A stretch of DNA of 64,000 nucleotides, taken from the NCBI RefSeq assembly GCF_057098645.1, contig NZ_CM169472.1; one strand, given 5' to 3'. Within the stretch, counting starts at the first letter, position 1. Each line of letters begins with the position of its first letter. Positions 62,201 through 64,000 of this stretch are shown here, one piece after another. The position numbers were made by a program.

Positions 62201-64000
62201 TGGTTTGAACCCGGAACCGCCCGCGCGCTTGATGCGTTTATTGAGGGGATGACGCTGCATTTTGTCACCGACCGTAAGCCGCTATCGCGCGAGGAGATTT
62301 TGAGGATGGTTGAGAGGGTTGCTGGGTAGCTACAGAGGTCGATAAGACGCAACACCTCCCTCGATAGCGCTAATCATCTCACTGGCGATCACATTTCGGC
62401 TATAACTTTTTTCGGGATAATCTCGTATTCTATTTTATTGATAAAAATGGAGTTTTCTGGGATATCATGCAAAACCAATGCATGTGCACCTATCGTGACG
62501 TTATCTCCAATATAGACTTTGCCGCCCAGAATGGAGGCGTTGCAACCAATGGTGACATTGTTGCCAATCTGTATATCCATTTCGTCAAAATGGCCACGTA
62601 GGCCGATGGTTACGCCGGGTTTGATGGAACAATTCTCACCAATTTTTACGTTATGACCGATAACAACTCCCGTTAAGTATGAAATATCCAACCCTTTGCC
62701 TATATCAACGACTAATGGGATTTTAACGTCATAACTATCAAGGATTTTTCGCTCAATTTTGCCAGCAATTTTCCGCCAGTAACCACCTTTCTCATGGCCG
62801 TATTTAGCGATACGCCACCAGAATAAGTAACGAACGCGCCGATGTTTCATCGCCCTTACAATGACTTTACGCCATGTGAATTTCCTACTTTTACCAATGA
62901 CTTCCAGATGAAGGCACTCTTTTAGCTCGTTAATATCCATATAAAAAATCTGTGTATTGCAAAGCCAGGAATATTACCGATTTTGTTCAGGTTTTTAAAT
63001 AAGCTTCTCAATAACTATTTGTTCTTTGTACGAAAAAGAATGATTTTCTGGAAGAGAGGACAGTCAGATAAGGCTTTGGACAGGGGAGAGAATGGAGATT
63101 TTGGGGATTTAGATAACAAAAAACCCACCAACCTTGAACCGAAATGGCGGGGTTGATGGGCTCCACAAAATGGGGACATCAAAGAAAAGCAGTGGCACTA
63201 ATTAAGACTGATGCCCTGCGGAAAAGTTCTGCGGTTGTGCAAAAAAATTTCATTTTCAGGGCAACTTCAGTTTTATCCTAATCCTGGCCATACCATGACG
63301 ATGATTGTCCCTGCCAGCGTCAGCAGAACGTTGGCGATTGCGTAGGTGCCCGCATAGCCCAGCGCCGGGATGTTACTGCGAGCTGTATCACTGATGATCT
63401 CCATTGCCGGCGCGCAGGTGCGTGCGCCCATCATTGCGCCGAACAACAGTGCGCGGTTCATTCGCAATACATAAGCACCGAACAAGAAACAGATAACCAC
63501 GGGCACCAGACTGACAATCAATCCGGCAATCAACATTTGACCGCCAATCGCGCCCAGGCCGTTATTAATACCGCTACCGGCGCTCAGACCAACGCCTGCC
63601 ATAAACACCATCAAGCCGAACTCTTTCACCATGCTTAATGCACCTTGCGGAATGTAACCGAAGGTCGGGTGGTTAGCACGCATAAAGCCCAGCATAATTC
63701 CGGCGAATAACAACCCGGCAGCGTTCCCCATGCCGAAACTGAATGTGCTGAACTGGAATGTGATCATCCCGATCATCAGCCCAATAACAAAGAAGGCGCA
63801 GAATGCCAGCAAGTCAGTGACCTGGCTGTGAATCGAGATAAAGCCAATGCGATCGGCGATGGTTTTTACGCGACGGGCATCGCCGCTGACTTGTAAAACG
63901 TCACCTTTGTTAAGCACGACGTTGTCATCTATCGGCATCTCAATCTGGCTACGAATGACGCGGTTAAGGAAGCAACCGTGGTCGGTCAACTTCAGTTGTG

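What the first reader, a model, noticed from the sequence alone, without database searches (positions are those of the whole stretch)
63118..63232. RybB sRNA with sigmaE promoter, directly abutting the acetyltransferase cassette
The RybB sequence and its sigmaE -35/-10 elements are intact. RybB down-regulates outer membrane protein mRNAs, and one of its textbook targets, ompX, lies in this same window. The novel cassette lies immediately 3' of rybB, so read-through or terminator context might differ from K-12.
Basis: partly seen in the sequence, partly recalled or inferred. Interest (0 to 1): 0.35.

Follow-up and report, generated by a model that had tools for sequence, protein, structure and literature searches.

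The report
Ordinary RybB gene beside phage-derived acetyltransferase
This is the well-known envelope-stress small RNA RybB with its normal sigma-E promoter, essentially identical to E. coli K-12; the neighbouring acetyltransferase is a single phage-family gene lodged at the rybB 3' end, a known landing site for P2-like prophages, so the finding is correct but ordinary.

Summary
RybB lies on the minus strand at 63118-63196 (Rfam RF00110, 104 bits against a cutoff of 40). Its sigma-E-type promoter is GAACTT, 16 nt, TCTTA at 63229-63203. From 63129 to the ybjL stop codon the sequence is 100% identical to a K-12-type genome.

The only difference is 63128 C instead of T, which is RybB A69G. It turns an A-U pair in the terminator stem into G-U (-22.7 vs -23.3 kcal/mol). 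This variant occurs in 751 of 5,426 complete E. coli genomes and is not linked to the insert.

The "cassette" is one 183-aa hexapeptide acetyltransferase gene (62389-62940). It is on the same strand as rybB and 177 nt downstream of it, within a 778-bp low-GC insert between rcdA and rybB. The insert is present in 70 of 5,426 genomes, and the window matches O145 strain RM9872 at 100%.

The insert ends 7 nt from AACAAAAAACCCA(Y), the attachment core that P2-like prophages use at the rybB 3' end. That use is already published, and about 21% of genomes are occupied. The acetyltransferase belongs to a phage accessory-gene family. In phage ESSI2_ev129 a homolog sits next to a rybB-type attP, and strain 300709 shows a decaying prophage with that gene flush against rybB. 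The islet is therefore probably a stranded prophage cargo gene.

Antisense transcription from the cassette is excluded by geometry. The ompX link is coincidental. Interest is low.

The parts
63118..63196 (-). RybB sRNA gene (79 nt). The 5' seed GCCACUGCUUUUCUUU is at 63196-63181.
   Evidence: Rfam RF00110 at 104.1 bits. Identical to K-12 except at 63128.
63203..63229 (-). Sigma-E-type promoter of rybB: -35 GAACTT at 63229-63224, a 16-nt spacer, -10 TCTTA at 63207-63203, and +1 G at 63196.
   Evidence: 100% identical to the K-12-type sequence. It is the only such motif in the window. Sigma-E dependence is inferred from published K-12 and Salmonella work.
63118..63162 (-). RybB intrinsic terminator: a 12-bp outer stem with an inner 3-bp helix, followed by U6. 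It carries the A69G variant (63128 C on the plus strand), which gives a G-U pair.
   Evidence: Folding gives -22.7 vs -23.3 kcal/mol for the terminator segment, with the same structure. The C variant is in 751 of 5,426 genomes.
63115..63128 (.). Attachment core AACAAAAAACCCA(C/T) used by P2-like (Felsduovirus/Quadragintavirus) prophages. It overlaps the last bases of RybB and carries no prophage in this window.
   Evidence: attL, attR and attP comparisons. Published in PMC3032704, PMC10121019 and PMC4048246.
62330..63107 (.). A 778-bp low-GC (about 0.40) islet that replaces 9 nt of the K-12 rcdA-rybB spacer.
   Evidence: Alignments with the empty site, composition profile, and presence in 70 of 5,426 genomes at 99.7% identity or more.
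62389..62940 (-). 183-aa left-handed beta-helix (hexapeptide) acetyltransferase, CysE/EpsC/WcaB-like. It belongs to phage family phrog_2154 and its acceptor substrate is unknown.
   Evidence: Pfam Hexapep 53.5 bits. NCBIfam EpsC and CysE scores are below their cutoffs. phrog_2154 E 5e-69. No PADLOC hit. The best solved structures are CysE catalytic domains.
62941..63117 (-). A 177-nt spacer between the RybB 3' end and the acetyltransferase start codon. It holds a weak sigma-70-like candidate, TTTAAA (62999-62994), 17 nt, TAATAT (62976-62971), and no clear Shine-Dalgarno sequence.
   Evidence: Read from the sequence. The consensus scan found no promoter at its threshold. No homolog of the spacer exists outside the islet.
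61793..62329 (+). rcdA (TetR-family regulator), convergent with rybB. It forms the left boundary of the islet.
   Evidence: RefSeq annotation of the identical genome. Pfam TetR_N and TetR_C_31.
63273..64000 (-). 3' part of ybjL (aspartate:alanine antiporter family), the gene upstream of rybB as in K-12.
   Evidence: Annotation. Pfam Asp-Al_Ex.
24644..25159 (+). ompX, about 38 kb from rybB. It is not functionally linked by position.
   Evidence: The translation equals the K-12 OmpX sequence as recalled. Seed pairing is no better than random.

Best explanation
The feature is the canonical rybB gene of E. coli. Under envelope stress, RNA polymerase carrying sigma-E starts at G63196 from the GAACTT-N16-TCTTA promoter. 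It terminates at the hairpin and U-tract ending near 63118, giving a 79-nt Hfq-dependent sRNA. The single-stranded 5' seed of that sRNA (GCCACUGCUUUUCUUU) pairs with porin and other outer-membrane-protein mRNAs and represses them.

Nothing in this strain alters the RNA in a functionally meaningful way. The one base change is a common A-U to G-U polymorphism at the edge of the phage attachment core.

The DNA just 3' of rybB is a one-gene islet. It is most likely the attR-proximal cargo gene (moron) of a P2-like prophage that once integrated into the rybB 3' end and then lost everything else by deletion. The acetyltransferase is co-directional with rybB but separated from it by an intact strong terminator. 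It therefore probably depends on its own weak promoter and is functionally independent of RybB.

Shown: identity of the RNA and promoter to K-12, the fold, the islet boundaries, the att core, and the phage affiliation of the gene. Inferred: sigma-E dependence and targets (by identity with K-12), the prophage-relic origin, and the independence of expression.
For: RybB identity: Rfam 104 bits, base-for-base identity to a K-12-type genome from 63129 to 63300, unchanged fold, and a unique sigma-E motif at the right distance from +1.

SNP: the 63128 C variant is in 751 genomes, including empty sites, lysogens and islet carriers. It is the same base in attL and attR of each lysogen.

Att site: P2-like prophages have int next to rcdA and ogr next to rybB, and share the core AACAAAAAACCCA(Y). 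About 1,120 of 5,426 genomes carry the attL junction, consistent with roughly 20% split hits. The site is published in PMC3032704, PMC10121019 and PMC4048246.

Islet as phage cargo: phrog_2154 E 5e-69. Homologs sit after tail-fibre assembly genes in prophages and on phage-plasmids. In Peduoviridae phage ESSI2_ev129 the order is SAT, 165 nt, a rybB-type attP, then int, which after integration predicts SAT-attR-rybB. That is the window's layout, with 174 nt from the start codon to the core. Strain 300709 has a tail-less P2-like prophage of about 18 kb at rybB with a truncated SAT flush against attR.

The core next to the islet still works as attB: three genomes have rcdA-SAT-core-int...ogr-core-rybB.
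Against: Relic origin. No sequence similarity exists between the islet's non-coding flanks and any phage or prophage searched. The closest phage homologs are only 76-78% identical in protein.

The left junction has no attL core copy. Left of the core the islet keeps the K-12-type bases TTTAGATAAC, whereas all the phage arms examined read CAGGCAAC.

Expression. No experimental data were available, and read-through from the strong rybB promoter cannot be excluded.
Confidence: 0.9

Rival explanations
1. The acetyltransferase islet arrived by a route unrelated to the P2-like attachment site, such as illegitimate or microhomology-mediated recombination, or transfer of a variant intergenic region by homologous recombination of the flanks. 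Under this view, its position 7 nt from the att core is a coincidence of a short, permissive intergenic spacer.
For: There is no attL copy, no integrase and no phage-arm sequence at either junction. The islet flanks are unique. A 14/15 direct repeat (62293-62307 and 63094-63108) ends flush with the right junction and could mark a microhomology event. Every context shown for the exact protein is this one chromosomal locus.
Against: The gene family is overwhelmingly phage-borne. A homolog occupies the equivalent position beside a rybB-type attP in ESSI2_ev129 and ev040. Strain 300709 shows the predicted decay intermediate.
Confidence: 0.3
2. The islet puts the acetyltransferase under envelope-stress control. 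A fraction of sigma-E-driven rybB transcription reads through the terminator and expresses the gene, coupling stress to acetylation of a surface glycan or metabolite.
For: The gene is co-directional with rybB and 177 nt downstream of it. No sigma-70 promoter passes the consensus scan in the spacer. The A-U to G-U change marginally weakens the hairpin.
Against: The terminator is strong: a 12-bp GC-rich stem at -22.7 kcal/mol followed by U6GUU, with the same downstream bases as K-12. A weak TTTAAA-17-TAATAT promoter candidate exists in the spacer. In three genomes a prophage of roughly 35 kb separates the gene from rybB with the gene intact. The G-U variant is not linked to the islet.
Confidence: 0.1
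3. The A69G change in the terminator stem alters RybB stability, Hfq binding or termination, so that RybB behaves differently in this strain from K-12.
For: The change lies in the 3' arm of the terminator helix, next to the U-tail that Hfq binds.
Against: Pairing is kept as G-U, the predicted structure is identical and the energy changes by only 0.6 kcal/mol. The Rfam alignment treats the stem positions here as pairable variants of the consensus, with no non-standard pair flagged. The variant is in 14% of complete E. coli genomes across many lineages.
Confidence: 0.05

Closest known systems
RybB of E. coli K-12 and Salmonella (Rfam RF00110), a sigma-E-dependent Hfq-binding sRNA
   Same: The seed, body, promoter and synteny (rcdA-rybB-ybjL) are all the same, with 78 of 79 nt identical.
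   Different: There is one G-U wobble in the terminator stem (A69G). The 3' flank beyond 10 nt is replaced by a 778-bp islet.
rybB attachment site of P2-like prophages (Rybb*W, Rybb*B and Rybb*Cr in PMC3032704; hotspot #29 of PMC10121019; Kpn38RybB in PMC4048246)
   Same: The same core, AACAAAAAACCCA(Y), overlaps the RybB 3' end. The core is intact here and is used by prophages in three islet-carrying genomes.
   Different: No prophage is present in this window. Only a single cargo-type gene is present, with no integrase and no duplicated core.
attP-adjacent serine-acetyltransferase-like morons of Peduoviridae phages ESSI2_ev129, ev040 and ev015 (Quadragintavirus)
   Same: The protein family is the same (47%, 39% and 49% aa identity for ev129, ev040 and ev015). 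The orientation is the same. In ev129 the spacing to a rybB-type core is nearly the same (165 vs 174 nt).
   Different: The window's allele is diverged and its flanks are not alignable. ev015 uses a tRNA-type attP, and ev040 has an Abi gene between attP and SAT.
Tail-fibre-adjacent acetyltransferase morons of lambdoid and P2-like prophages and P1-like phage-plasmids (for example vB_EcoM-613R2 and JL22)
   Same: They belong to the same family: vB_EcoM-613R2 and many prophage copies at 70-76% identity, with the phage-plasmid JL22 copy a more distant member (39% aa). All are single accessory genes of unknown function.
   Different: They sit after the tail-fibre assembly gene rather than beside an att site.
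cyaR (ryeE) with the P2 attB and the ogr-D' remnant in K-12
   Same: This is another sRNA locus used as a P2-family insertion site, with a prophage remnant (ogr-D') left beside it. It is listed as an insertion site in PMC3032704, Table 2.
   Different: It is a different sRNA and a different core, and the remnant there consists of phage late-control genes rather than a cargo gene.

Membership tests
RybB sRNA (Rfam RF00110) | Covariance-model score above the curated gathering threshold over the full model | tested here: met
   104.1 bits vs 40, model positions 1-79 of 79, E 2.5e-20.
RybB sRNA (Rfam RF00110) | Conserved single-stranded 5' seed GCCACUGCUUUUCUUU | tested here: met
   Identical to K-12 and unpaired in the predicted fold.
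RybB sRNA (Rfam RF00110) | Rho-independent terminator hairpin with a 3' U-tract (the Hfq-binding module) | tested here: met
   A 12-bp stem followed by U6, at -22.7 kcal/mol, with one G-U pair in place of A-U.
RybB sRNA (Rfam RF00110) | Sigma-E promoter (GGAACTT-like -35, 16-nt spacer, TCnnA -10) at the correct distance from +1 | tested here: met
   aGAACTT-N16-TCTTA at 63229-63203, identical to K-12 and unique in the window. Actual sigma-E dependence was not tested.
RybB sRNA (Rfam RF00110) | Conserved synteny between rcdA (ybjK) and ybjL | tested here: met
RybB sRNA (Rfam RF00110) | Hfq binding and repression of omp mRNAs | not testable with these tools
   Inferred from sequence identity with the studied K-12 RNA.
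Integrated P2-like (Peduoviridae) prophage at rybB | Integrase and phage genes bounded by duplicated att cores (attL and attR) | tested here: not met
   The window has one core copy (63115-63128), no integrase and no phage structural genes. The islet is not a prophage.
Prophage remnant or stranded moron of a rybB-integrating phage | The gene belongs to a phage accessory-gene family and occupies the attR-proximal position seen in intact phages | tested here: met
   phrog_2154 E 5e-69. ESSI2_ev129 has SAT, then a rybB-type attP, then int. Strain 300709 is an intermediate.
Prophage remnant or stranded moron of a rybB-integrating phage | Flanking non-coding DNA traceable to a phage arm | tested here: not met
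   The flanks have no similarity to anything outside the islet. The bases left of the core are host-type.
Serine O-acetyltransferase CysE (TIGR01172) / EpsC (NF041874) | Score above the curated equivalog cutoff | tested here: not met
   CysE scores 71.5 against a cutoff of 210.65, and EpsC scores 81.5 against 150. Matches to solved CysE chains (242-293 aa) cover only their C-terminal halves, aligning to residues 50-165 of the 183-aa query. The RefSeq name 'serine acetyltransferase' should not be read as a function.
Hexapeptide-repeat (left-handed beta-helix) acyltransferases (Pfam PF00132) | Hexapeptide repeats above the Pfam gathering score | tested here: met
   53.5 bits vs 27.
Known anti-phage defence proteins (PADLOC-DB) | Match to any defence-system model | tested here: not met
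   0 families at E up to 0.01.

The most novel reading that the evidence does not exclude
The acetyltransferase is a phage cargo gene that has been stranded and kept beside rybB in about 1.3% of complete E. coli genomes and many more draft assemblies. Under this reading it is retained because low-level read-through from the very strong sigma-E rybB promoter makes it an envelope-stress-inducible modifier of a surface glycan, and so an sRNA gene and a domesticated phage moron would form one stress-responsive transcription unit.
Probability: 0.05. Interest if true: 0.4.

Novelty: already known. Interest (0 to 1): 0.12.

Why it matters
For RybB itself it matters little. The gene, its promoter and its use as a P2-like prophage attachment site are all documented, and this copy is functionally indistinguishable from K-12.

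There are two small points of value. First, the neighbouring 'serine acetyltransferase' is a member of a widespread temperate-phage accessory family of unknown function, and its name is unsupported. Here it appears as a one-gene remnant at an sRNA att site, with a free-phage counterpart and a decay intermediate available for comparison. Second, the polymorphisms around the RybB terminator coincide with the phage att core, which illustrates how prophage traffic can shape the 3' ends of sRNA genes.

Tried and rejected
(1) Linkage of the 63128 C variant to the islet. A 41-nt query centred on the SNP, which cannot seed a megablast hit in T-variant genomes, matched 751 genomes and not 70. Linkage is rejected.

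(2) A tail-fibre-assembly remnant in the islet's left flank. tblastn with three Tfa proteins gave only noise, with E of 0.35 or higher.

(3) Nucleotide similarity of the islet flanks to phages, plasmids or other E. coli loci. Only the coding sequence (query positions 105-613) matches elsewhere, at 70-74%.

(4) The exact spacer 31-mer in IMG/VR viral contigs gave 0 hits. Protein-based loci in IMG/VR are all 78% identical or less, and none has the rybB core.

(5) Alignment of the spacer with ESSI2_ev129 and ev015 showed it is not alignable.

(6) PADLOC defence models gave no hit.

(7) RybB seed-ompX duplex. The energy is -12.7 kcal/mol against a mean of -12.1 for random windows. 38% of random windows are at least as good, and the best site lies at -131 to -119 relative to the start codon.

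(8) The sigma-70 and terminator consensus scan of 62200-63400 found no promoter and only a weak 5-bp hairpin on the plus strand.

(9) I did not use the genome contigs or metagenome scans, structure prediction or the large protein searches. The question did not justify their cost.

Full report
**1. What is at the coordinates**

A scan of the whole window against Rfam gives one strong hit at the finding. This is RybB (RF00110) at 63115-63193 on the minus strand, at 104.1 bits against a gathering score of 40, with E 2.5e-20 and the full model matched.

The K-12 RybB 5' end, GCCACUGC, begins at 63196, so the 79-nt RNA runs from 63196 to 63118.

Upstream on the same strand lies aGAACTT (63229-63224), a 16-nt spacer and TCTTA (63207-63203). 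The -10 element ends 7 nt before +1. That is the geometry of sigma-E promoters (my own knowledge of the consensus GGAACTT-N16-TCnnA). The pattern GAACTT-N16-TCNNA occurs only once in the 64 kb, at this place, where 0.38 matches are expected by chance.

**2. Comparison with K-12**

The window is 100% identical to E. coli O145 strain RM9872.

I aligned it with the same locus of a K-12-serotype (O16:H48) genome. Every base from 63129 to 63300 is identical. That stretch covers the seed, the body, the 5' arm of the terminator, the promoter, the A/T-rich upstream region and the end of ybjL.

The only difference inside RybB is 63128 C instead of T. In the RNA this is A69G, in the 3' arm of the terminator helix, and it converts an A-U pair into G-U. 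The predicted structure is unchanged, and the terminator segment goes from -23.3 to -22.7 kcal/mol.

**3. Is the single change connected to the insert?**

It is not. A 41-nt query centred on the SNP cannot seed a megablast hit in T-variant genomes. It matched 751 of 5,426 complete E. coli genomes, whereas only 70 carry the insert.

C-variant genomes include empty sites (strains 7/2, CE10, MRY15-117), P2-like lysogens (MS6198) and islet carriers.

**4. What the 'acetyltransferase cassette' is**

Between the rcdA stop codon (62329) and the point where K-12 identity resumes (63108) lie 778 bp of about 40% GC. They replace 9 nt of the K-12 spacer.

The stretch holds a single ORF, 62389-62940 on the minus strand, encoding 183 aa. 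The ORF is on the same strand as rybB, and its ATG lies 177 nt downstream of the RybB 3' end.

The protein has hexapeptide repeats (Pfam PF00132, 53.5 bits). It resembles EpsC, CysE and WcaB, but falls far below their curated cutoffs: 81.5 against 150, 71.5 against 210.65, and 55 against about 195.

Solved CysE structures align only with its catalytic half. The RefSeq name 'serine acetyltransferase' is therefore a family label and not a demonstrated function.

The protein matches phage family phrog_2154 over its full length at E 5e-69. That family has no known function. It matches no PADLOC defence model.

Two papers that mention such genes in phiNP and in the P1-like phage-plasmid JL22 state or imply that the role is unknown.

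**5. Distribution**

The islet is present in 70 of 5,426 complete genomes, at 99.7% identity or more and in one copy each. Carriers include O145:H28 strains and assorted human, poultry, pig and cattle isolates.

In 67 of them it is contiguous with rcdA and rybB.

The exact protein is listed in 10,357 blocks of public assemblies. Of the 38 contigs read, all 10 places shown have the same ybjL-(rybB)-SAT-rcdA context.

Diverged copies of the coding sequence only, at 70-74% nucleotide identity, occur in about 240 more genomes. They lie after tail-fibre assembly genes of lambdoid and P2-like prophages, and on plasmids of roughly 47 kb and 94-100 kb, sizes typical of phage-plasmids.

**6. Why foreign DNA sits here: rybB is a phage attachment site**

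In about a fifth of genomes the match to the locus breaks exactly after rcdA.

In strain 13E0725 the gap is a P2-like prophage, with int next to rcdA and ogr next to rybB. Its junctions are as follows.

- attL reads ...TTTAGATAACAAAAAACCCAT/TTATGTAAACGGG.
- attR reads ...TTTCAGGCAACAAAAAACCCAT/CAACCTTGAACC.

This gives a common core, AACAAAAAACCCA(Y), which overlaps the U-tract and the last stem bases of RybB. RybB is regenerated intact at attR.

A chimeric query shows about 1,120 genomes with this attL junction, roughly 21%.

This is published. Archer et al. list 'rybB ncRNA' as the insertion site of P2-like prophages in E. coli W, B and Crooks (PMC3032704). Hochhauser et al. describe hotspot #29, Felsduovirus prophages integrated in rybB (PMC10121019). 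Hudson et al. report a prophage 'precisely within' rybB in Klebsiella (PMC4048246).

Position 63128 is the same base in attL and attR of each lysogen, C/C in PS10-3 and T/T in 13E0725. It therefore lies at the edge of the core.

**7. Relation of the islet to those phages**

The islet ends 7 nt before the core (islet to 63107, core from 63115). Several lines of evidence bear on its origin.

- Three genomes (PS10-3, NZ_CM196106.1 and strain 100181) have the order rcdA-SAT-core-int...ogr-core-rybB. The islet is therefore separate from those prophages, and the core beside it still works as attB.
- The free phage ESSI2_ev129 (Peduoviridae, Quadragintavirus) carries a homolog (47% aa) arranged as SAT, 165 nt, a rybB-type attP (ttCAGGCAACAAAAAACCCAtttat), then int. 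After integration this predicts SAT-attR-rybB, co-directional, which is exactly the window's layout (174 nt from the ATG to the core).
- ev040 has int-attP-Abi-SAT. ev015 has the same layout with a tRNA-type attP.
- A chimeric query made of the ev129 arm, the core and RybB found one genome that matches at 100%, strain 300709. It carries a tail-less P2-like prophage of about 18 kb at rybB, whose SAT is truncated to its first 123 aa and lies flush against attR. This is a decay intermediate.

Together these make 'stranded attR-proximal cargo gene of a lost rybB-integrating prophage' the best account of the islet.

Several points count against that account.

- The islet's flanks match nothing else.
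- The closest phage alleles are only 76-78% identical.
- There is no attL copy.
- The bases left of the core are host-type TTTAGATAAC, whereas the phage arms read CAGGCAAC.

I rate the relic origin at about 0.55-0.6 and an unrelated insertion at about 0.3.

**8. Consequences for RybB**

The hairpin, the U6 tract and the next 10 nt (GUUAUCUAAA) are as in K-12. The immediate termination context is therefore unchanged apart from the wobble pair.

Because the acetyltransferase is co-directional with rybB and transcribed away from it, it cannot produce antisense RNA to rybB.

The only convergent gene is rcdA. In K-12 its stop codon lies 19 nt from the RybB 3' end, and here it lies about 790 nt away. 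If anything, rybB is better insulated in this strain.

Read-through from PrybB into the acetyltransferase is possible in principle, and no sigma-70 promoter passes the consensus scan. A weak TTTAAA-17-TAATAT candidate is visible at 62999-62971. However, the terminator is strong, and the gene survives intact when a prophage of roughly 35 kb separates it from rybB. I give read-through control 0.1.

**9. The ompX remark**

ompX is at 24644-25159, and its product is identical to the K-12 sequence as I recalled it. It lies about 38 kb from rybB, as in K-12 (my own recollection of the K-12 map).

RybB acts in trans, so linkage is irrelevant.

The RybB seed pairs with the ompX region from -150 to +90 at -12.7 kcal/mol, against a mean of -12.1 for random windows. 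38% of random windows are at least as good, and the best site is far upstream of the start codon.

The papers checked list RybB among sRNAs reported to affect OmpX, but they cite CyaR for the defined mechanism. 'Textbook target' is overstated.

**10. Verdict**

The finding is correct in its core, and it is ordinary. This is a canonical, already known sRNA gene at a known prophage attachment site, next to a single phage-family acetyltransferase of unknown function that is already annotated in public genomes.

Novelty: already known. Interest: 0.12.

The most novel reading not excluded is sigma-E read-through control of a domesticated phage moron. I give it a probability of about 0.05.

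Noticed in passing
window 62293-62307 and 63094-63108; also 62280-62294 / 62355-62369: A 15-nt direct repeat (GGAGATTTTGAGGAT / GGAGATTTTGGGGAT, 14/15) has one copy inside the rcdA 3' end and the other ending flush with the islet's right junction. There is also a 15-nt inverted repeat between the rcdA 3' end and the islet's left end. About 0.02 such direct repeats are expected by chance in 1 kb (my estimate). This could be a microhomology footprint, but it is unexplained.
   Followed up: partly
L002, L008, L009, L010 (empty rcdA-rybB sites), aligned to window 63108-63128: Unoccupied sites are polymorphic just left of the att core: TAGAT in K-12 and strain 7/2, TAGGC in CE10, TAGAC in MRY15-117. 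They are also polymorphic at the core edge (T or C at 63128). TAGGC resembles the phage arm CAGGC, so these may be scars of past prophage integration and excision in the RybB 3' flank.
   Followed up: partly
L003 (13E0725), L013 (PS10-3), L056 (300709): The rybB-integrated P2-like prophages carry varied cargo. 13E0725 has a DUF4041 protein next to int, a retron Ec67-family reverse transcriptase after the replication genes, and an acyltransferase-3 family gene after the tail fibre genes. PS10-3 has an AAA ATPase next to int. 300709 has a DUF4276 protein and an AAA ATPase next to int. This is consistent with the defence cargo described for hotspot #29 (PMC10121019).
   Followed up: no
L014 (phage ESSI2_ev015) 2660-3010: This relative of ev129 has the same int-attP-SAT layout. 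Its attP region contains what looks like a tRNA 3' fragment (…GGTGGCCCCTGCTGGACTTGAACCAGCGACC…) and not the rybB core, which suggests att-site switching with the cargo position retained.
   Followed up: no
window 11938-12008 (-) and 29062-29104 (+): There are two other Rfam hits above threshold: naRNA4 (REP-derived nucleoid-associated RNA, 78.4 bits) and ES036/CssrF (43.7 bits).
   Followed up: no
L053 and L054 (GCA_002949835.1, GCA_900448575.1): The identical islet also occurs in two genomes of about 4.3 Mb. One of them has an IS1-type transposase gene beside a shortened ybjI-like gene, with different genes beyond it. These may be Shigella-type genomes; I did not check the organism names.
   Followed up: no
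window 61763 vs 61793: The mechanical ORF list starts rcdA at a TTG (188 aa), whereas RefSeq annotates 178 aa (537 bp). This is only a start-codon ambiguity.
   Followed up: no
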